Source: a virus (Duplodnaviria > Heunggongvirae > Uroviricota > Caudoviricetes). Taken from it: a stretch of 32,443 bases of DNA. The notes beneath the pieces were generated by a model. The model was not told the DNA's origin. It saw only the letters and a list, made by a program, of their open reading frames with translations, and ran no database searches. Within the stretch, counting starts at the first letter, position 1. The number at the start of each line of letters is the position of its first letter. The position numbers and the translations under genes were made by a program. Of this stretch, positions 11,085-19,613 are shown one piece after another. The stretch lies in the IMG/VR virus record IMGVR_UViG_2541047794_000003. One strand, written 5' to 3'.

Positions 11085-11771
11085 ATGACCCCAATAAAAA
11101 TATTTATGACTATTGCTGATTTCAAACGGCCTAAATTGGAGCTCCCAAACGGGGCAAACAAACTACTACTGCACTCTTGCTGTGCTCCATGTTCCGGTGA
11201 AGTGATGGAGGCGCTTCAGGCCTCGGGAATCGACTACACCATCTTTTTCTACAACCCGAACATTCATCCTCAGAAAGAGTATTTAATTCGTAAGGATGAA
11301 AATATTCGCTTTGCTGAACAACACGGCGTGCCGTTTATCGATGCTGATTACGACACCGACAACTGGTTTGAACGTGCCAAAGGAATGGAATGGGAGCCTG
11401 AGAGGGGGATCCGTTGTACCATGTGTTTTGACATGCGTTTTGAGCGGACAGCGTTGTACGCTGCTGAAAATGGTTTCAGTGTGATCAGCAGTTCACTGGG
11501 CATTTCACGCTGGAAAAATATGCAGCAGGTTAACGAGTGTGGGCGGCGAGCTGTTGCGCATTATCCGGGTATGGTGTACTGGGATTATAACTGGCGCAAG
11601 CAGGGCGGCTCGTCCCGTATGATTGAAATCAGCAAGCGCGAAAAATTCTATCAGCAGGAATATTGTGGCTGTGTGTATTCTCTGCGCGATACCAATCTAC
11701 ACCGCAAATCTCAGGGACGCCCTCTTATCAAAATTGGCCAACTCCACTACGGAAAAGAAGAGAAGGAGTGA
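11085..11771 (+). CDS. queH: DUF208-family protein, likely epoxyqueuosine reductase QueH-like
   Basis: 228-aa ORF with [11 protein letters not shown] motif and additional conserved Cys (CTMC, CGC) typical of DUF208/QueH. Confidence 0.55.
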
Positions 11772-12605: not shown

Positions 12606-13661
12606 GTGCGGGTATTACTTCGACCTGTTCTGGTACCGGAACTCGGGCTGGTGATCGTTAAGCCGGGCCGTGAATCCATGCCGGTATTCCACAATACCCG
12701 GGTACTGGTGGAGCCGGAACCGAAAAGCATGCGTAATCTGCCGTCCGGGGTCGTTCCTGCCGTTCGCCAGCCGCTGGCGGAGGATAAATCATTACTGCCA
12801 TTTTTCAGCGACGAACGAGTGATTCGTGCTGCTGGTGGCGCTGGCGCATTGTCTGACTGGTTACTGCGCCATGTTAAATCCTGCCAGTGGCCACACGGCG
12901 ATTATCACCACAGTGAAACCGTCATTCACCGTTATGGTACCGGCGCAATGGTGTTGTGCTGGCACTGCGACAACCAGCTGCGCGACCAGACCTCCGAATC
13001 ACTCGGGCAACTTGCTCACCAAAACCTGTTTGCATGGATGATTGACGTCATACGCCATGCAATGAATGGCTCGCAGGAACGGGAATTATCGCTGGCTGAA
13101 TTATCCTGGTGGGCGGTCCGCAATCAGGTGGCGGACGCGCTACCGGAAGCGGTATTACGTCGTTCGCTGGGGTTGCGTGCGGAAAAAATCCGCTCAATGT
13201 ACCGTGAAAGCGACATCGTACCGGGAGAGCAGACCGCCACCAGCATACTGAAGCAGCGCACAAAAAATCTTGCGCCGCTGCCTCACGCCCACCAGCAAAA
13301 CCCGCCACAGGAAAAGACGGTGGTCAGCATTGCCGTTGATCCGGAGTCACCGGCTCAGTATCTCCAGCGCCAGAAATCACAACGGGAAGAGATGCCTGTA
13401 TACACGCGTTGGGTAAAAACGCAGAAATGCATGACGTGTGGCAATCAGGCAGATGATCCGCATCACATCATTGGTCATGGACTGGGAGGGATGGGAACAA
13501 AGGCTGATGATTTGTTTGTTATTCCGCTGTGCCGTAAATGCCATAGCGAACTACACGCCGGGGTAGAAGATTTTGAAGAAAAACACGGCAGCCAGCTGTT
13601 GTTGCTGATTCGTTTTTTAATGCACGCGAGAAATTCGGGTGTTTTGAAGTGGAAAGCATAA
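12606..13661 (+). CDS. DUF968-type protein with HNH-like zinc-binding motifs (YdfU-like)
   Basis: 351 aa, GTG start with GGAGG SD; C-terminal CMTCG...DPHHIIGH...CRKCHSELH HNH-like motif and an upstream Cys/His cluster. Confidence 0.65.
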   Translation: MRVLLRPVLVPELGLVIVKPGRESMPVFHNTRVLVEPEPKSMRNLPSGVVPAVRQPLAEDKSLLPFFSDERVIRAAGGAGALSDWLLRHVKSCQWPHGDYHHSETVIHRYGTGAMVLCWHCDNQLRDQTSESLGQLAHQNLFAWMIDVIRHAMNGSQERELSLAELSWWAVRNQVADALPEAVLRRSLGLRAEKIRSMYRESDIVPGEQTATSILKQRTKNLAPLPHAHQQNPPQEKTVVSIAVDPESPAQYLQRQKSQREEMPVYTRWVKTQKCMTCGNQADDPHHIIGHGLGGMGTKADDLFVIPLCRKCHSELHAGVEDFEEKHGSQLLLLIRFLMHARNSGVLKWKA

Positions 13662-14042
13662 ATGACTGAACGCATAGAATTTGTTTTGCCTTACCCGCCA
13701 ACGGTGAACACTTACTGGCGACGCCGTGGCAGCACATATTTTGTATCAAAAGCCGGGGAGCGTTATCGCCGGGCAGTGGCGCTTATTGTTCGCCAGCAGC
13801 GGCTGAAATTAAGCCTGTCCGGAAGGTTGGCAATAAAAATTATTGCAGAACCACCGGATAAGCGCCGCCGTGACCCGGACAATATTCTGAAAGCGCCGCT
13901 GGATGCGCTGACGCATGCGGGGTTGCTAATGGACGATGAGCAGTTTGATGAAATCAATATCGTTCGTGGTCAGCCAGTATCTGGTGGACGTCTGGGGGTG
14001 AAGATTTACCCCATAATGCTTGAAGGGCAGGTCAAAAAATGA
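13662..14042 (+). CDS. rusA: Holliday junction resolvase RusA
   Basis: 126 aa; LPYPPTVNTYWRRRG ... PDKRRRDPDNILKAPLDALTHAGLLMDDEQ ... GGRL matches RusA catalytic pattern. Confidence 0.85.
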   Translation: MTERIEFVLPYPPTVNTYWRRRGSTYFVSKAGERYRRAVALIVRQQRLKLSLSGRLAIKIIAEPPDKRRRDPDNILKAPLDALTHAGLLMDDEQFDEINIVRGQPVSGGRLGVKIYPIMLEGQVKK

Positions 14043-14860
14043 AACTGGAAGATTTACCGAAATACTACTCCCCAAAATCCCCCGGCCTGACCGATGCGTC
14101 CGCCTCGACATCAAAAGATGCGCTGAGTATCACTGATGTGATGGCCGCGCAGGGCATGACACAAAATCGGGCTGAGATGGGTTTTTCTGCGTTCCTTGGG
14201 AAAATGGGCATTAGTATGAATGACAGAGAGCGGGCAACAGAATTGCTGACAGAATATGCACTCAGTCGGTGTGATCGCGTGGCGGCGTTAAGAAAACTCC
14301 CGGCAGAAATAAAACCGGTAGTGATGCGCATTATGGCTTCGTACGCTTTTGAGGATTATGCCCGCAGCGCAGCGAGTAAAAAGCAGTGCCCTTGTTGCTA
14401 TGGGGAAAAATTTATTGAAAGCGTAGTTTTTACAAACAAGGTCCAGTATCCGGATGGTAAGCCGCCGGTATGGGCAAAGTGTACGAAAGGTGTGTATCCG
14501 TCTTACTGGGAAGAATGGAAAAAAGTCAGGGAGGTGGTAAAAGTTGCCTGTCCGGAGTGTGGCGGAAAGGGTGAGGTTTCCACCGCCTGTAAGGATTGCC
14601 GTGGGCGTGGTGTCGCCATTCATCGTGAAGAGTCGGTAAAACGTGGTATGCCTGTTATCAGAGACTGCCAGCGTTGTGGTGGTCGTGGCTGTGAAAGACT
14701 ACCATCAACGGAGGCATTTAATGCCATACGCAAAGTGACGAGTGCTATCACGCTTGATACGTGGAAAAAATCAGTGAAACGCTTTTACGATACGTTGGTG
14801 GTTCGGTTTGACATTGAAGAGGCATGGGCGGAGCGGCAGTTAAAGAGGGTAACGCGATAG
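14039..14860 (+). CDS. Q: Late-gene antiterminator Q (long Q-type with multiple CxxC zinc motifs)
   Basis: 273 aa with four CxxC pairs; ATGA overlap with rusA; immediately followed by a PR'-like promoter whose -10/initial transcribed region resembles lambda PR'. Confidence 0.65.
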   Translation: MKLEDLPKYYSPKSPGLTDASASTSKDALSITDVMAAQGMTQNRAEMGFSAFLGKMGISMNDRERATELLTEYALSRCDRVAALRKLPAEIKPVVMRIMASYAFEDYARSAASKKQCPCCYGEKFIESVVFTNKVQYPDGKPPVWAKCTKGVYPSYWEEWKKVREVVKVACPECGGKGEVSTACKDCRGRGVAIHREESVKRGMPVIRDCQRCGGRGCERLPSTEAFNAIRKVTSAITLDTWKKSVKRFYDTLVVRFDIEEAWAERQLKRVTR

Positions 14861-14865
14861 TGTTG

Positions 14866-14905
14866 TTGATTTTTCCCGAATCTGTGGTAAATTTGCTCTA
14901 ACGAT
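14866..14905 (+). promoter_or_regulatory. Late promoter PR' with qut-like region
   Basis: -35 TTGATT (14866-14871), 16-nt spacer, -10 TAAATT (14888-14893) followed by TGCTCTAACGATGGGCG, resembling my recollection of lambda PR' GGGTAAATTTGACTCAACGATGGG. Confidence 0.55.
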
Positions 14906-14940
14906 GGGCGTTTTATGCCTGACGTTAGAAGATTTTTTAC

Positions 14941-14966
14941 ACCCCGCCGCCTGGCGGGTTTTTTAT
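14941..14966 (+). terminator. tR'-like intrinsic terminator
   Basis: CCCGCC gcct GGCGGG hairpin followed by TTTTTT about 50 nt downstream of PR' -10. Confidence 0.55.
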
Positions 14967-15086
14967 GACTGAAATCGCGTCAGTACAGTAAACGCGCTGG
15001 TGGCGGTGAATACCTGTCTTTCAGCTTGCTGGCTTTTTCGACAAGAGTTATTGGTGTGTCACGTTAACCGGAAAAGGGAAAAAGAC

Positions 15087-15284
15087 ATGCTAAAACAGCA
15101 GGATATGACAGAAACCGCCAGAGTAGTGTTTAATGAATTAAGAGTTACCGAACCGGCGACAGTCGGGGAGATAGCGCAGAATACTTACCTTTCACGCGAA
15201 CGCTGCCAGTTAATACTGACCCAGCTGGTTATGGCGGGTCTGGCAGACTATCAGTTCGGTTGTTACAGACGCCTTCCGCAGTGA
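15087..15284 (+). CDS. Small hypothetical protein (possible winged-helix DNA-binding)
   Basis: 65 aa from ATG 15087 with AAGGGA SD; intrinsic terminator hairpin overlaps its 3' end. Confidence 0.5.
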   Translation: MLKQQDMTETARVVFNELRVTEPATVGEIAQNTYLSRERCQLILTQLVMAGLADYQFGCYRRLPQ

Positions 15285-15296
15285 AGGCTTTTTTAT
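15271..15296 (+). terminator. Intrinsic terminator
   Basis: GCCTTC cgcagt GAAGGC followed by TTTTTTATTT. Confidence 0.5.
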
Positions 15297-15434
15297 TTGT
15301 GGTAAATGGGCGGCTGGTGGGTGTTAGGGGCACCCACCAGCCATCTGCTCATGCGTTGGGTTCACAAGCAAACCTCAGGCCCACTGCTTTGCGCAAAAGC
15401 AGAATGAGCCTATCAGAGACAGGCTTAATGATCC

Positions 15435-16484
15435 ATGCTTAATACTGTAAAAATATCCAGTTGTGAGTTAATCAACGCCGACTGCCTGGAATTTATCCGG
15501 TCGTTACCCGAAAATTCTGTTGACCTGATAGTCACGGACCCGCCGTACTTTAAAGTGAAGCCTGAGGGCTGGGATAACCAGTGGAAGGGCGACGATGATT
15601 ACCTGAAGTGGCTGGACCAGTGTCTGGCGCAGTTCTGGCGGGTGCTGAAACCTGCCGGAAGTCTTTACCTGTTCTGTGGTCATCGCCTGGCATCTGATAT
15701 CGAAATCATGATGCGTGAACGCTTCAGTGTGCTGAACCATATTATCTGGGCGAAGCCGTCCGGACGCTGGAACGGATGCAACAAGGAAAGCCTGCGGGCG
15801 TATTTCCCCGCCACAGAGCGCATTCTGTTCGCGGAACATTATCAGGGGCCGTATCGTCCGAAAGATGCCGGGTATGCGGTGAAGGGCAGTGCACTGAAAC
15901 AGCATGTGATGGCCCCGCTGATTTCTTACTTTCGTGATGCGCGCGCGGCCCTGGGGATAACGGCAAAACAGATTGCAGATGCCACAGGAAAGAAAAACAT
16001 GGTGTCGCACTGGTTCAGTGCCAGTCAGTGGCAGCTACCGAACGAAAGCGATTATCTGAAATTACAGTCGCTGTTTGCCCGGGTGGCAGAAGAGAAACAT
16101 CAGCGCGGTGAACTGGAAAAGCCCCACCACCAGCTGGTGGATACGTATACGTCACTGAACCGGCAGTATGTGGAGCTGCAGAGTGAATATAAGCATCTGC
16201 GGCGGTATTTTGGTGTGACGGCGCAGGTGCCGTACACGGATGTGTGGACACATAAACCGGTGCAGTTCTATCCCGGGAAACATCCGTGCGAAAAACCGGC
16301 AGAAATGCTGCAGCAGATAATCAGCGCAAGTAGCCGTCCTGGTGATCTGGTTGCGGATTTTTTCATGGGGTCGGGTTCAACGGTAAAAGCGGCGATGGCA
16401 CTGGGGCGTCGTGCGATTGGTGTTGAGCTGGAGACCGGACGTTTTGAGCAGACAGTCAGGGAAGTTCAGGATTTAATCGTTTGA
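15435..16484 (+). CDS. Orphan DNA methyltransferase, probably N6-adenine (beta-class motif order)
   Basis: 349 aa; TDPPY motif IV near N-terminus and FFMGSGST motif I near C-terminus; no adjacent restriction gene. Confidence 0.8.
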   Translation: MLNTVKISSCELINADCLEFIRSLPENSVDLIVTDPPYFKVKPEGWDNQWKGDDDYLKWLDQCLAQFWRVLKPAGSLYLFCGHRLASDIEIMMRERFSVLNHIIWAKPSGRWNGCNKESLRAYFPATERILFAEHYQGPYRPKDAGYAVKGSALKQHVMAPLISYFRDARAALGITAKQIADATGKKNMVSHWFSASQWQLPNESDYLKLQSLFARVAEEKHQRGELEKPHHQLVDTYTSLNRQYVELQSEYKHLRRYFGVTAQVPYTDVWTHKPVQFYPGKHPCEKPAEMLQQIISASSRPGDLVADFFMGSGSTVKAAMALGRRAIGVELETGRFEQTVREVQDLIV

Positions 16485-16533
16485 AACGGATGAGATTGCA
16501 GAATTAATTACGCACCATTATTATTCTGCTCCC

Positions 16534-16609
16534 GGCCCTTTAGCTCAGTGGTGAGAGCGAGCGACTCATAATCGCCAGGTCGCTGGTTCAAATCCAGCAA
16601 GGGCCACCA
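16534..16609 (+). tRNA. ileZ: tRNA-Ile (anticodon CAT, lysidine type; ileZ-like)
   Basis: 76-nt cloverleaf GGCCCTT...AAGGGCC-A-CCA; anticodon loop CTCATAA; near-identical architecture to E. coli tRNA-Ile2. Confidence 0.8.
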
Positions 16610-16616
16610 TCACATA

Positions 16617-16693
16617 CCGCCATTAGCTCATCAGGAAAGAGCGCCAGCCTTCGAAGCTGGTTGCGCGGAGTTCGGGTCCCCGAAGGCGGTCCA
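16617..16693 (+). tRNA. tRNA-Arg (anticodon TCG as read), atypical
   Basis: Cloverleaf with anticodon stem CCAGC/GCTGG and loop CTTCGAA; one mismatch in acceptor stem (A6:A67) and one in T-stem, T-loop TTCGGGT; ends CCA. Confidence 0.55.
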
Positions 16694-16706
16694 TTATCTG
16701 TATCCT

Positions 16707-16783
16707 GCGTTGTTAGCTCAGCCGGACAGAGCAATTGCCTTCTAAGCAATCGGTCACTGGTTCGAATCCAGTACAACGCGCCA
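16707..16783 (+). tRNA. argO: tRNA-Arg (anticodon TCT, reads AGA)
   Basis: Perfect acceptor stem GCGTTGT/ACAACGC, anticodon loop CTTCTAA, T-loop TTCGAAT, discriminator G, CCA. Confidence 0.8.
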
Positions 16784-16829
16784 CACTTATTTTCCCTGGC
16801 TCGCTTTTGTGGGCCTTTTTTTTAAATGT

Positions 16830-17045
16830 CTCACAATTTAGGCGGTTGACTGTTGTCTGGTTTGCGGGGAGTTTGTTAAAAGAAACTGGCATGGTGAATC
16901 CCCCTGTGCGGAGGGGCAATCAGCGAGTAGGTATATGGGATAATCGCGGATTCAGGTGCTGGTACTGAATTCACCGGGAGGCACCCGGCACCATGCAATG
17001 GCACATAGCGCCACTCTCCAGCCCCTCTCCGGAGGGGCTTTTCTG
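16830..17045 (+). repeat. Module A of tandem structured non-coding element (conserved arms GCATGGTG.../...CACCATGC, internal hairpins, terminator)
   Basis: CTCACAATT + TTGACT motif, conserved arm gcatggtgaatccccctgtgcggaggggc (16889-), arm ctgaattcaccgggaggcacccggcaccatgc (-16996), terminator CCCCTC tccg GAGGGG + T-run (17022-17045). Confidence 0.5.
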
Positions 17046-17297
17046 TGCCGGATACATCACAGTTTCTGGAACCTTAGGTACTACAGTATCAGTCAGGGTG
17101 CTATATTTTCAGATGTGATGAAAGCCTGTCAGCAGGCAGGGCGTATCGGAAATGACCCAGTAGAGAAAACGTTGACTCAGATACCGGTGCTGAGTTACCG
17201 GGAAACCGGCATCACATGACCGCTATCCTTCCAGGCCCATCCGCTCCGGTGGGCCTTTTTACTGCAGAAAACAGGTTCCCCGTTAAATGCTATGTTG

Positions 17298-17532
17298 CTC
17301 ACAATTCAGTAAGTTGACAGTTGCCTGTCAGACTGGGCATTTGTTAAAAAAATTTCGCATGGTGAATCCCCCTGAGCGGAGGGGCGACTGGTGACGGTAT
17401 AATCTCTGATTATCAAAACGAGAATGACGCGGGTTTAGTGGCACCGGGCTGAACTCACCGGGAGGCACCCGGCACCATGTGCATGATGATACAGATACGC
17501 GGCTTTAGCCCCTCTCCGGAGGGGTTTTCTTG
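17298..17532 (+). repeat. Module B, second copy of the same structured element with divergent core
   Basis: Same conserved arms (17357-17479) and same terminator (17507-17532); central ~60 nt unrelated to module A; preceded by terminator GGCCCA...TGGGCC+TTTTT (17234-17261). Confidence 0.5.
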
Positions 17533-17759
17533 TGGGCAAAAAAAGCCCGCGCTGGGAGACGCGGGCGGCAAGGAATAAACAATAAAACGTGAAGTAATAT
17601 TTCAGCTGGCGAATAATACCCCATAGTAATCACTCTGCGCAACTGCGCGGTCTTTTTCGAATTGCGGGCTGTCGTCTCTCTTCTGCCATTGTCCTGTAAC
17701 TTCCGGACTTCAGCCCGCTCCTTATTTTACTCACAATATTATCCCGGCCGGGAGGATTC

Positions 17760-19613
17760 ATGGCATTTAAACACTATGACGTGGTCAGGGCGGTATCGCC
17801 GTCAGACCTTGCGAAACGACTGACACAAAAACTGAAGGAGGGCTGGCAGCCGTTTGGTAGTCCGGTGGCCATAACCCCTTATACCCTGATGCAGGCGATT
17901 GCAGCAGAAGGTGATGTGGTGGTCAGTGGTGCAACTGAGCCGGATTGGTACTACGTCATCGTACTGGCCGGGCAGTCCAATGCCATGGCTTACGGTGAAG
18001 GGCTTCCGCTGCCGGATTCATACGATGCGCCCCATCCGCGCATTAAGCAACTGGCCCGTCGTAACACAGTGACTCCCGGTGGTGAAGTATGCGTATTTAA
18101 CGACATCATTCCTGCTGACCATTGTCTGCATGATGTTCAAGATATGAGTACGATTAACCATCCCCGGGCTGACCTGAGCAAAGGGCAGTACGGCTGTGTC
18201 GGACAGGGCTTACATATTGCCAAAAAACTGCTTCCGTATATCCCTAATAACGCGGGGATCCTGCTGGTACCATGCTGTCGTGGTGGTTCGGCATTCACCC
18301 AGGGCACGGAGGGGACATTCAGCGAGTCCACGGGGGCCAGTCAGGATTCGGCTCGCTGGGGAGTGGGTAAGCCGTTATATCAGGATCTGCTTTTCCGCAC
18401 GAAGGCAGCATTGCAGAAAAACCCGAAAAACGTTTTGCTGGCGATATGCTGGATGCAGGGGGAATTCGATATGACGAATGCCAGTTACGCCCAGCAGCCA
18501 GCAGCATTTCTTGCAATGGTACAGCAGTTCCGTGCTGACCTTGCCGGGCTGGCGGCGCAGTGTCACGGTGGAAGTCCGGCATCAGTCCCCTGGATTTGTG
18601 GCGACACGACATACGCGTGGAAACAAGAACACGGTACGCAATATGAAGTGGTATATGGTGCATATAAAGGTAAAGAATCCCAGCAGATTTATTTTGTTCC
18701 CTTTATGACCGATGGTAGCGGAGTTAATACACCGACAAACAACCCGTCAGAAGATCCTGATATTGCCGGGTCTGGTTATTACGGTTCGGCATCCCGAACG
18801 AACAAAAACTGGGTATCATCAAATCGCCCGACGCATTTCAGCTCATGGGCGCGTCGTGGCATTATTCCCGATCGTATGGCAACTGCTATTCTGAACGTAG
18901 CCGGTCGCACCTTAGCCTTCATTAGTGGTAAGGCACCGGAAATCAAACCCTCGCCCGGCGGCGACACGCCATCGGGGCCGTCTGAAGATGCATCCGTACG
19001 CACAATCTCCCTGTTGCCGACAGCCGGAGATGCTGCTGCGCAGGGCTGGAGCATTAAGAATGGCGGAATTCAGTTGTCAGAGGGTGTATTTAAGATCACC
19101 AAGCAGAGCAATAAAACCTGGTACCTGATGCATCCGGTGGATGACGCAATTACCCTGCTGACACAGGGCGGCAGACTGACCTGTAAGTTCCGCCTCTCAG
19201 GCGCACTGACCAACAATCAGTTCGGGCTGGGGATTTATCTGTATACGGACGCTCCCGTTCCTGATGATGTGGCGATGACGGGTACTGGTAATCCGTTCCT
19301 GATGTCTTACTTCACTCAGACCACTGACGGCAGAGTGAATCTGATGCATCACAGGAAAGCCGGAAACACGAAGCTGGGGGAGTTTGGCGATTACGGTAAC
19401 GACTGGCAGACGCTGGAGCTGGTGTTCACCGCCGGCAGTGCCACGGTTACTCCGAAACTGAATGGAGTGGCTGGCCCGGCATTCCAGGTCATAAAAGACA
19501 GTCTGACACTGGGGCTGAATGCGCTGACGCTGACGGATGTTACAAAAAATGCAGCGTATGGCGTTGAGATAGAAAGTCTGGTGCTGGAGATAAATGCACC
19601 GGCATCATCATAA
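17760..19613 (+). CDS. Prophage sialate O-acetylesterase (NanS-p type): N-terminal DUF1737 plus SGNH/SASA esterase domain
   Basis: 617 aa; GGGAGG SD; GQSNAMAYGEG esterase motif; sits downstream of the tRNA cluster as in Stx-phage late regions. Confidence 0.75.
   Translation: MAFKHYDVVRAVSPSDLAKRLTQKLKEGWQPFGSPVAITPYTLMQAIAAEGDVVVSGATEPDWYYVIVLAGQSNAMAYGEGLPLPDSYDAPHPRIKQLARRNTVTPGGEVCVFNDIIPADHCLHDVQDMSTINHPRADLSKGQYGCVGQGLHIAKKLLPYIPNNAGILLVPCCRGGSAFTQGTEGTFSESTGASQDSARWGVGKPLYQDLLFRTKAALQKNPKNVLLAICWMQGEFDMTNASYAQQPAAFLAMVQQFRADLAGLAAQCHGGSPASVPWICGDTTYAWKQEHGTQYEVVYGAYKGKESQQIYFVPFMTDGSGVNTPTNNPSEDPDIAGSGYYGSASRTNKNWVSSNRPTHFSSWARRGIIPDRMATAILNVAGRTLAFISGKAPEIKPSPGGDTPSGPSEDASVRTISLLPTAGDAAAQGWSIKNGGIQLSEGVFKITKQSNKTWYLMHPVDDAITLLTQGGRLTCKFRLSGALTNNQFGLGIYLYTDAPVPDDVAMTGTGNPFLMSYFTQTTDGRVNLMHHRKAGNTKLGEFGDYGNDWQTLELVFTAGSATVTPKLNGVAGPAFQVIKDSLTLGLNALTLTDVTKNAAYGVEIESLVLEINAPASS

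What the first reader, a model, noticed from the sequence alone, without database searches (positions are those of the whole stretch)
15087..16484. Late-expressed orphan adenine methyltransferase preceded by a small putative DNA-binding protein
A beta-class methyltransferase (DPPY before FxGxG) with no restriction partner lies downstream of PR', separated from it by two terminators. A 65-aa protein with its own terminator precedes it and may be a controller. Late-phase methylation of progeny DNA would be an anti-restriction function; target specificity is unknown.
Basis: partly seen in the sequence, partly recalled or inferred. Interest (0 to 1): 0.55.

Follow-up and report, generated by a model that had tools for sequence, protein, structure and literature searches.

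The report
Prophage non-specific adenine methyltransferase cassette

Summary
A 65-aa ORF (15087-15284) and a 349-aa beta-class N6_N4 methyltransferase (15435-16484; DPPY before FxGxG) lie between antiterminator Q with a lambda-like PR' and a three-tRNA cluster. Two terminator-like hairpins separate them from PR', and no restriction gene is nearby.

The specificity is not really unknown. The protein is about 95% identical to M.EcoGII, the characterised non-specific adenine methyltransferase from an E. coli O104:H4 prophage. It is 96% identical to the phage 1720a-02 enzyme that the M.EcoGII authors named as a relative. The module occurs in 1779 of 5426 complete E. coli genomes and in many Stx2 phages. 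The gene itself is therefore already known.

The small ORF is a real gene (dN/dS about 0.11) with a confident winged-helix model. Where it occurs, a methyltransferase gene almost always follows. However, 16 of 42 species-level loci keep the methyltransferase without it, so it is not an obligatory controller.

A roughly 130-nt leader before the methyltransferase start is more tightly linked. It diverges about 7% as fast as flanking synonymous sites, folds into three hairpins with covariation, and matches no Rfam family. Its 5' half has a counterpart in lambda between PR' and S. Late anti-restriction hypermethylation is plausible but inferred, not shown.

The parts
14039..14860 (+). Late antiterminator Q (273 aa, PF03589 type with a DnaJ-like zinc motif)
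   Evidence: Pfam Antiterm 170.5 bits; phrog_127 anti-termination protein Q-like.
14866..14908 (+). Late promoter PR': -35 TTGATT 14866-14871, extended -10 TGgTAAATT 14885-14893, and the AACGATGGG sigma-70 pause-type element from 14900. The start near 14900 is inferred by analogy with lambda.
   Evidence: Aligned with lambda PR' (TTGACT / TAAATT / AACGATGGG); lambda PR' located by the scan. Function is inferred from established knowledge of lambda PR'.
14943..14964 (+). tR'-like intrinsic terminator (6 G-C pairs plus TTTTTT). It is the left edge of the module shared with Stx2 phages.
   Evidence: Phage matches start at query position 81-85, which is window 14940-14944.
15025..15086 (+). Conserved 5' block of the small gene (CTTGCTG ... 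AGAGTTATCnGTnTGTCA ... AGG SD). A weak predicted helix joins 15054-15059 to 15085-15090 and covers the AUG.
   Evidence: Alignment A7; alifold 6 bp with no covariation; AUG unpaired probability median 0.04 in 23 loci. Role unknown.
15087..15284 (+). 65-aa stand-alone winged-helix protein (phrog_331; named 'TrmB family' or 'DprA-like winged helix' by sources)
15271..15296 (+). Hairpin plus T run overlapping the small gene's stop codon (second terminator). The T run is E. coli-specific; other genera have a hairpin here with a poor T run.
   Evidence: comparison of loci.
15305..15434 (+). Conserved structured leader of the methyltransferase: P1 15312-15342, P2 15344-15372 (covarying pair 15346-15370), P3 15378-15410, then an SD-less initiation region 15411-15434
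   Evidence: Motifs present in 39 of 42 loci with a methyltransferase at least 70% identical, and by covariance model in 40 of 42. Alignment A3. JC distance 0.15 against dS 1.4-2.0 in flanking genes. Pair counts. MFE -63.4 kcal/mol, z -4.2. No Rfam match on this strand.
15435..16484 (+). 349-aa beta-class N6-adenine DNA methyltransferase, M.EcoGI/M.EcoGII family (DPPY nt 15537-15548; FMGSG nt 16362-16376)
   Evidence: The exact protein is already in public collections, on 68 contigs.
16534..16783 (+). Three tRNA genes (CAT, TCG, TCT anticodons; the ileZ-argN-argO type cluster of lambdoid and Stx phages). This is downstream context in the same late transcription unit.
   Evidence: annotations.

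Best explanation
The 349-aa gene is an intact allele of the M.EcoGI/M.EcoGII family. These are prophage-borne, orphan, beta-class N6-adenine methyltransferases with no sequence specificity beyond the target adenine. In this window it is the first large gene of the late operon of a lambdoid E. coli prophage. The order is Q, PR', tR' terminator, a 65-aa winged-helix gene, a second hairpin/terminator, a 130-nt structured leader, the methyltransferase, three tRNAs, sRNA copies, an esterase and the lysis genes.

Shown here: the identity, the intact motifs, the gene order, the promoter and terminator anatomy, purifying selection on both genes, and strong constraint on the leader.

Inferred: in the lysogen, PR' transcripts stop at tR' and at the second terminator, so the toxic enzyme is not made. 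After induction, Q-modified RNA polymerase reads through, the enzyme is made late, and it methylates most adenines of replicating and packaged phage DNA. That would protect progeny from adenine-methylation-sensitive Type I, II and III restriction in the next host.

The winged-helix protein is a real accessory gene of this cassette. It almost never occurs without the methyltransferase, but the methyltransferase often occurs without it. It most likely modulates expression or action of the cassette by binding nucleic acid, and it is not required. The leader, not the small protein, is the constant companion of the gene. It probably acts in cis on the late transcript, in termination, processing or translation of an SD-less start.
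For: - **Identity.** The protein is 331/350 identical to M.EcoGII, whose sequence was read from Suppl. Table S1 of PMC11551740. It is 330/345 identical to the phage 1720a-02 methyltransferase, which PMC5778455 names as very similar.
- **Family properties.** PMC5778455 reports that M.EcoGII is 349 aa, beta-class and non-specific, and that it is toxic when expressed. It also reports that M.EcoGI (333/349 identical) and M.EcoGII are both non-specific and not expressed in the lysogen. [quoted passage not shown]
- **Clade-wide non-specificity.** Reconstructed ancestors of the clade are also largely non-sequence-specific (PMC11551740).
- **Motifs and selection.** The catalytic and SAM motifs lie in invariant columns. 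Methyltransferase dN/dS is 0.07.
- **Late control.** PR' matches lambda and the terminators are present. PR' being constitutive and terminated at tR' in lysogens is taken from PMC7547250.
- **Placement.** The cassette sits behind three different Q families in other genera.
- **Small gene.** dN/dS is 0.11 and the fold is a winged helix. Of loci found with the small protein, 64 of 68 have an intact methyltransferase downstream, and all 8 places in three other genera do. Among methyltransferase-seeded species-level loci, 26 of 42 have the small gene.
- **Leader.**
Against: - No activity, methylome or expression data exist for this allele. About 15-18 residues differ from M.EcoGII, three of them in the 160-237 recognition domain.
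- The M.EcoGII sequence I compared with is a machine-read PDF table. It has three oddities in otherwise invariant blocks.
- In the paper library I found no demonstration that virion DNA of such phages is hypermethylated, or that the gene helps the phage.
- Copies are often inactivated: frameshifted in the 99.9% identical AR_0017 prophage, and interrupted by IS elements or truncated elsewhere. This could mean weak benefit or a cost.
- Predicted sequestration of the methyltransferase start codon is seen in the window but is not a family-wide feature.
Confidence: 0.8

Rival explanations
1. The enzyme is a sequence-specific orphan methyltransferase with an unknown motif. The residues that differ from M.EcoGII would confer specificity.
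For: About 15-18 substitutions relative to M.EcoGII, three of them inside the recognition domain at residues 160-237. NCBI names the protein 'site-specific DNA-methyltransferase', but that is a generic label.
Against: M.EcoGI differs from M.EcoGII by 16 residues and is equally non-specific (PMC5778455). Reconstructed clade ancestors, which are far more divergent, remain largely non-specific (PMC11551740). The substitutions fall outside columns invariant across genera.
Confidence: 0.07
2. The 65-aa winged-helix protein is a dedicated controller of the methyltransferase. It would be either a transcriptional regulator acting on the cassette's conserved DNA blocks, or a Com/mom-like RNA-binding factor acting on the structured leader to gate translation of the SD-less start.
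For: Adjacency is tight and asymmetric: the small gene is almost never found without the methyltransferase. It is under purifying selection. It is a minimal stand-alone winged helix, and fold neighbours include the RNA-hairpin-binding SelB domain and Z-alpha domains. The leader is structured and highly constrained, and there is no SD before the methyltransferase AUG. The enzyme is toxic, so tight control is expected (PMC5778455).
Against: Sixteen of 42 species-level loci keep an apparently full-length methyltransferase and 14 of those keep the leader without the small gene, some with remnants of its 3' end. Leader sequences do not differ visibly between loci with and without it. There is no Cys4 zinc finger as in Com. 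There are no fusions to methyltransferases among 59 representative clusters. Start-site sequestration is not conserved.
Confidence: 0.2
3. The small gene is an independent moron-like gene with its own terminator. Its function would be unrelated to methylation, for example host-directed or binding phage DNA, and it would be linked to the methyltransferase only by shared ancestry of a 1.9-kb module.
For: It is bracketed by terminators and has a conserved upstream block with an SD of its own. It is dispensable for maintenance of the methyltransferase. It has no match in the PADLOC defence-system library or NCBIfam.
Against: No consensus promoter lies upstream; the best candidate -10, TATCTG/TATTGG, lacks the essential final T. 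Adjacency is maintained at synonymous saturation across genera and behind three Q types. It is rarely retained when the methyltransferase is lost.
Confidence: 0.2
4. The leader's conservation reflects its role as a shared recombination linker, or as tandem late-operon terminators common to lambdoid phages. It would not be a methyltransferase-specific regulatory RNA.
For: The covariance model finds P1 and P2 in lambda at 45004-45111, between PR' and S, with compensatory changes, and lambda has no methyltransferase. Breakpoints of module exchange fall inside P1 in L095 and L064. From my own recollection, tandem terminators downstream of tR' were described in lambda (Luk and Szybalski 1983); I did not check this here.
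Against: P3 and the initiation region were not matched in lambda (the hit aligns only the P1-P2 part) and travel with the methyltransferase. The hairpins lack good U tracts in most loci. Covariation including G-U pairs points to selection on + strand RNA structure.
Confidence: 0.3

Closest known systems
M.EcoGII and M.EcoGI (E. coli O104:H4 C227-11 prophage methyltransferases; Fang 2012, Murray 2018, PMC5778455)
   Same: 349 aa, beta-class order (DPPY, central recognition domain, FxGxG), about 95% identity, orphan, and located on a lambdoid prophage. Phage 1720a-02, which the authors name as a relative, is 96% identical to this copy.
   Different: About 15-18 substitutions, and this allele is untested. 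The papers I read (searched for flanking-gene, homolog and prophage terms) did not mention the upstream winged-helix gene, the structured leader or the position behind Q and PR'.
Phage Mu mom/com (toxic late DNA-modification gene with layered control)
   Same: A DNA-modifying enzyme that is toxic when expressed, silent in the lysogen and expressed late. A small gene lies immediately upstream and the leader is structured. PMC12707154 itself pairs Mom with M.EcoGII.
   Different: The chemistry is different (from my knowledge of Mu: Mom adds an acetamido-type group, this family a methyl group). Com is a Cys4 zinc-finger translational activator, whereas this is a winged helix with two cysteines. 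No Dam/OxyR/C-type transcriptional layer is evident. The small gene is dispensable in many loci.
Controller (C) proteins of Type II restriction-modification systems
   Same: A small nucleic-acid-binding protein encoded just upstream of a modification gene.
   Different: C proteins are XRE-type HTH dimers that time expression of a restriction gene through C-boxes. Here the fold is a winged helix and there is no restriction gene.
Other phage orphan adenine methyltransferases (P1 Dmt, T4 Dam, VT2/933W Dam-like enzymes)
   Same: Phage-encoded orphans thought to protect phage DNA or to regulate the phage cycle.
   Different: Those enzymes are sequence-specific (GATC and relatives), and from my own knowledge they belong mostly to another motif-order class. 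This family is context-free.
Lambda late leader (PR', qut/pause element, tR', PR'-S interval) and the StxS/6S short PR' transcript
   Same: PR' core and pause element are nearly identical to lambda. A short PR'-to-tR' transcript is expected (PMC7547250). The P1-P2 hairpins have a lambda counterpart.
   Different: The Q type differs (PF03589, not the lambda type). The predicted PR'-tR' transcript is about 65 nt, against 258 nt between PR' and tR' in the Stx phages studied in PMC7547250. Lambda has no methyltransferase cassette.

Membership tests
M.EcoGI/M.EcoGII family (prophage non-specific N6-adenine MTase) | Beta-class motif order: DPPY (motif IV) N-terminal, central recognition domain, FxGxG (motif I) C-terminal | tested here: met
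   DPPY at aa 35-38 and FMGSG at aa 310-314, both in columns invariant across genera. PF01555 at 152.8 bits.
M.EcoGI/M.EcoGII family (prophage non-specific N6-adenine MTase) | Full-length close sequence identity to the type enzyme (349 aa) | tested here: met
   331/350 identical to M.EcoGII as read from PMC11551740 Table S1. This is a machine-read copy with three doubtful positions. 330/345 identical to the 1720a-02 enzyme that the authors name as a relative.
M.EcoGI/M.EcoGII family (prophage non-specific N6-adenine MTase) | Recognition domain (residues 160-237, four-helix bundle with HTH per PMC11551740) conserved | tested here: met
   75 of 78 residues identical to M.EcoGII in the alignment. 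The structure of this allele was not modelled here.
M.EcoGI/M.EcoGII family (prophage non-specific N6-adenine MTase) | Methylates adenine in any sequence context (also ssDNA and RNA) | not testable with these tools
   Requires a methylome or in vitro assay. Inferred from M.EcoGI, M.EcoGII and reconstructed ancestors.
M.EcoGI/M.EcoGII family (prophage non-specific N6-adenine MTase) | Orphan gene on a lambdoid prophage, silent in the lysogen | tested here: inconclusive
   Orphan status and prophage location are met. Silence is only inferred from the PR' and terminator anatomy.
R-M controller (C) proteins | XRE-type HTH protein adjacent to a restriction endonuclease gene that it regulates | tested here: not met
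   The fold is a winged helix. There is no Pfam HTH_3-type hit and no restriction gene within +/- 4 kb.
TrmB family (PF01978), the name given by NCBI and UniRef to the small protein | Score at or above Pfam's gathering threshold | tested here: not met
   17.7 bits against a cut-off of 25.6, over residues 14-55 only. The generic winged-helix fold is confirmed.
Mu Com/mom-type translational activation | Small Cys4 zinc-finger protein that opens a leader hairpin occluding the modification gene's start | tested here: not met
   The small protein has two cysteines (C40, C59) and a winged-helix fold. Occlusion of the start is predicted in the window but is not conserved: median unpaired probability 0.37 against 0.42 with a shuffled leader.
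Any Rfam 15 family (for the leader) | Covariance-model match | tested here: not met
   No + strand match at E <= 1 in 15285-15434. The only hit is a sub-threshold minus-strand P26 match (24 bits, gathering score 36).

The most novel reading that the evidence does not exclude
The cassette carries an undescribed control layer for a toxic, context-free methyltransferase. The first part is a roughly 130-nt leader RNA (P1-P3) that diverges about as slowly as flanking amino-acid-changing (non-synonymous) sites and precedes an SD-less start. The second is a facultative 65-aa minimal winged-helix protein that binds this RNA, or the cassette's conserved DNA block, to gate translation, termination or targeting. 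This would be functionally analogous to Com/mom but built from unrelated parts. The P1-P2 element would then be a general, unrecognised feature of lambdoid late leaders, since it is also present in lambda upstream of S.
Probability: 0.2. Interest if true: 0.55.

Novelty: already known. Interest (0 to 1): 0.25.

Why it matters
The methyltransferase needs no new explanation. It belongs to the family of M.EcoGII, a characterised enzyme that is widely used as a non-specific m6A footprinting reagent. Two things are still open and directly testable. First, does this very common prophage gene (about a third of complete E. coli genomes, and many Stx2 phages) actually hypermethylate progeny DNA and broaden host range across restriction barriers? 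I found no experimental test of this in the paper library. Second, how is a lethal enzyme kept silent? The conserved leader and the winged-helix partner are concrete candidates. The answer matters for Stx-phage spread and for engineering tight expression of M.EcoGII-type enzymes.

Tried and rejected
- **Solved structures.** There is no structure of M.EcoGII. The best PDB sequence matches are other beta-class methyltransferases that align only in the catalytic halves.
- **Murray 2018 supplement.** Its table of homologs is not held as text.
- **An exact M.EcoGII copy in the phage collection.** None was found; the best is 93-94%. The identity figure therefore rests on a machine-read table.
- **Lambda orf-64 as a homolog of the small protein.** No similarity.
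- **Fusions of the winged helix to methyltransferases or larger proteins.** None among 59 representative clusters.
- **PADLOC (defence-system library) and NCBIfam for the small protein.** No hits.
- **A longer 94-aa form of the small ORF (GTG at 15000).** Rejected. The upstream extension is not conserved, contains indels, and an SD precedes the ATG at 15087.
- **A leader peptide or uORF in the methyltransferase leader.** Rejected. The ORF from the invariant AUG ends at many different positions, with an ATGA overlap of the methyltransferase start in only 10 of 46. Single-base indels also break the frame.
- **Conserved occlusion of the methyltransferase start site.** Not supported.
- **RNAalifold's own consensus for the leader.** It conflicts with the one strongly covarying pair, A3 columns 67-93. 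I therefore tested a hand-built P1-P4 structure; P4 is not supported.
- **A sigma-70 promoter for the small gene.** None by the scan. The conserved block has a poor -10.
- **Literature on induction-dependent hypermethylation by this family.** Nothing found.
Full report
**What is there.** The window is a lambdoid E. coli prophage. Around the finding, all on the + strand, the order is as follows.
- a DUF968/HNH protein (12606-13661)
- RusA (13662-14042)
- antiterminator Q of the PF03589 type (14039-14860)
- a 65-aa ORF (15087-15284)
- a 349-aa PF01555 methyltransferase (15435-16484)
- three tRNAs (16534-16783)
- STnc100 sRNA copies
- a NanS-p-like esterase (17760-19613)

The segment is 99.9% identical to prophages in several sequenced E. 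coli strains. Stretches covering at least 80% of the 14860-16800 module occur in 1779 of 5426 complete E. coli genomes. They also occur in many Stx2-converting phages, in phiP27 and in phage 1720a-02. The exact methyltransferase and small-protein sequences are already in public protein collections.

**Observation check.** The coordinates, the DPPY-before-FxGxG order and the absence of a restriction partner are all correct. PR' was not picked up by the consensus scan. A direct alignment nevertheless shows that 14866-14908 carries the lambda PR' core: -35 TTGATT against TTGACT, an identical -10 TAAATT preceded by TG, and the same AACGATGGG element that in lambda induces the sigma-70-dependent pause. 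The lambda function is established knowledge. A strong terminator follows at 14943-14964, and a second hairpin with a T run overlaps the small ORF's stop codon at 15271-15296. No + strand sigma-70-like promoter lies between PR' and the methyltransferase. Homology with Stx2 phages, which carry other Q types, starts exactly at the first terminator. The mobile module therefore runs from the terminator through the small gene, leader and methyltransferase to the tRNAs.

**What the methyltransferase is.** Full-text searching led to M.EcoGII, the non-specific adenine methyltransferase of an E. coli O104:H4 C227-11 prophage (PMC5778455). That paper describes a 349-aa beta-class enzyme. It methylates adenine in any context in dsDNA, and also ssDNA and RNA. 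It is toxic when expressed and is not expressed in the lysogen. [quoted passage not shown]

The M.EcoGII sequence printed in Suppl. Table S1 of PMC11551740 is 331/350 identical to the window protein. The three places where that machine-read copy departs from every other family member lie in otherwise invariant blocks, so they may be reading errors. The 1720a-02 enzyme is 330/345 identical. Only 3 of the 78 residues of the recognition domain (160-237) differ from M.EcoGII.

Reconstructed ancestors of the clade are also largely non-specific (PMC11551740). I therefore conclude that this allele is a context-free adenine methyltransferase. No solved structure of the family exists. Membership rests on sequence; the activity itself could not be tested.

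**How it most likely works.**
- Shown: the gene lies in the late transcription unit behind PR' and two terminators. It is intact and under purifying selection (dN/dS 0.07).
- From the literature: lambdoid PR' is constitutive and is terminated at tR' in lysogens until Q acts (PMC7547250). M.EcoGI and M.EcoGII are silent in the lysogen, and M.EcoGII is toxic when expressed.
- Inferred: Q-dependent read-through makes the enzyme late. Progeny DNA becomes heavily m6A-modified and resists adenine-methylation-sensitive restriction in the next host.

I found no paper testing that last step. Recurrent inactivation of the gene suggests a cost. It is frameshifted in the near-identical AR_0017 prophage, and it is IS-interrupted or truncated elsewhere.

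Linkage between the two genes is asymmetric.
- Loci found with the small protein have an intact methyltransferase 130-160 nt downstream in 64 of 68 viral contigs. The four exceptions are disrupted copies.
- The same holds in all 8 places examined in Klebsiella, Salmonella and Buttiauxella, behind three different Q families.
- In a one-genome-per-species scan seeded with the methyltransferase, only 26 of 42 loci with a methyltransferase at least 70% identical have the small gene. Several of the 16 without it retain remnants of its 3' end.

The small gene is therefore ancestral to the cassette and seems useful only alongside the methyltransferase. It is dispensable, so it is not an obligatory controller and not a C-protein.

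**An unlooked-for part: the leader.** The roughly 130 nt before the methyltransferase start are conserved in 39 of the 42 loci by motif and in 40 by covariance model. That includes 14 of the 16 loci that lack the small gene. The leader's divergence (JC 0.15) is about 7% of the synonymous divergence of the flanking genes. It is not coding: single-base indels are common, and the ORF from its invariant AUG ends at many different places. There is no SD before the methyltransferase AUG.

One pair (A3 columns 67-93, window 15346-15370) shows four Watson-Crick or wobble types in 45 of 45 sequences. A three-hairpin structure (P1 15312-15342, P2 15344-15372, P3 15378-15410) is 94% paired, against 27-39% for slid controls. 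It has 8 pairs with compensatory changes, against 2.7 +/- 1.2 in shuffles, on the MAFFT alignment. With divergent members added, 22 of 36 pairs show compensatory changes, but that alignment is fitted to the model and so is biased. I drew the structure from these same sequences, so the support is moderate. The G-U pairs argue for + strand RNA.

The window leader folds at -63.4 kcal/mol (z -4.2) and pairs the start codon. Across 43 loci, however, the start region is no less accessible than with a shuffled leader, so occlusion is not established. Rfam has no matching family.

The model also finds P1-P2, with compensatory changes, in phage lambda at 45004-45111. That is between PR' and S, and lambda has no methyltransferase. 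Module-exchange breakpoints also fall inside P1. The 5' half of the leader is therefore a general lambdoid late-leader element. It may be an extra termination or processing hairpin. I recall tandem terminators described there in lambda, but I did not check this. P3 and the start region are what travel with the methyltransferase.

**Comparison and novelty.** What I did not find described is the cassette architecture: the facultative winged-helix gene plus the constrained structured leader behind Q and PR'. The nearest functional analogy is Mu com/mom. That too is a toxic late DNA-modification gene with a small upstream gene and a leader hairpin, but the defining features of that system are not met (no Cys4 zinc finger, occlusion not conserved). 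Overall interest is low for the finding as given. It is moderate only for the untested idea that the leader and the winged helix form a new control layer.

Noticed in passing
window 16860-17050, 17328-17537 (and 17089-17262): Two full-length copies of the STnc100 sRNA family (RF02076; 136 and 161 bits) plus a degenerate third copy (30 bits, below the gathering score). Each ends in a terminator hairpin. They lie between the tRNA cluster and the esterase gene, in the slot where stx sits in Stx phages.
   Followed up: no
L251:1205-1312 (phage lambda 45004-45111): Lambda carries a counterpart of leader hairpins P1 and P2, with compensatory changes, about 75 nt upstream of gene S although it has no methyltransferase (27.5 bits; E about 5e-6 to 9e-5 depending on search size). 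This suggests a conserved, unannotated late-leader RNA element in lambdoid phages.
   Followed up: partly
window 14900-14965: PR' to tR' would give a short transcript of about 65 nt, the positional analogue of lambda 6S RNA and of the StxS sRNA of Stx phages (PMC7547250). Homology to Stx2a phages begins only at the terminator, so the body of the RNA is specific to this Q/PR' type.
   Followed up: no
window 15025-15090: A conserved block upstream of the small gene (CTTGCTG, 13 nt, CAGAGTTATCnGTnTGTCA). A 6-bp helix (15054-15059 with 15085-15090) is predicted to cover the small gene's AUG, whose unpaired probability has a median of 0.04 in 23 loci. There is no covariation and the energy is weak.
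   Followed up: partly
L095:2857-3271 and L064:2904 onward (window 15338-15358): Module-exchange breakpoints fall inside hairpin P1. One contig keeps the small gene and half of P1 but has other DNA in place of the methyltransferase. Another keeps the methyltransferase from mid-P1 onward without the small gene.
   Followed up: partly
L001:4576-5623 (NZ_CP024886.1), and hits H43, H44 and H50: The methyltransferase is annotated as a frameshifted pseudogene in a 99.9% identical prophage. It is split or IS-interrupted in other genomes. Four of 68 viral contigs have truncated copies. This recurrent inactivation fits a toxic or costly gene.
   Followed up: partly
window 16534-16609: ARAGORN calls the first tRNA Met (anticodon CAT), while RefSeq and phage records annotate the same gene as tRNA-Ile (ileZ). 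From my own knowledge, this fits a CAT-anticodon tRNA-Ile2 read as Ile after lysidine modification.
   Followed up: no
L226:2310-2509 (Enterobacter sp. Bisph1): A truncated copy of the leader and the first 93 methyltransferase codons lies directly downstream of an isocitrate dehydrogenase-like gene. From my own knowledge, icd is a known prophage integration site, which would make this a decayed prophage end.
   Followed up: no
L176:1513-1687: A second, weak match to the leader model (29.4 bits) lies about 800 nt upstream of the main leader in a Trabulsiella locus that lacks the small gene.
   Followed up: no
L001:247-912 and 1150-1305 (window about 11085-11771 and nearby): The early-right region of this prophage carries a QueH (epoxyqueuosine reductase) gene and a hokD toxin gene, according to the RefSeq annotation of the near-identical prophage.
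   Followed up: no
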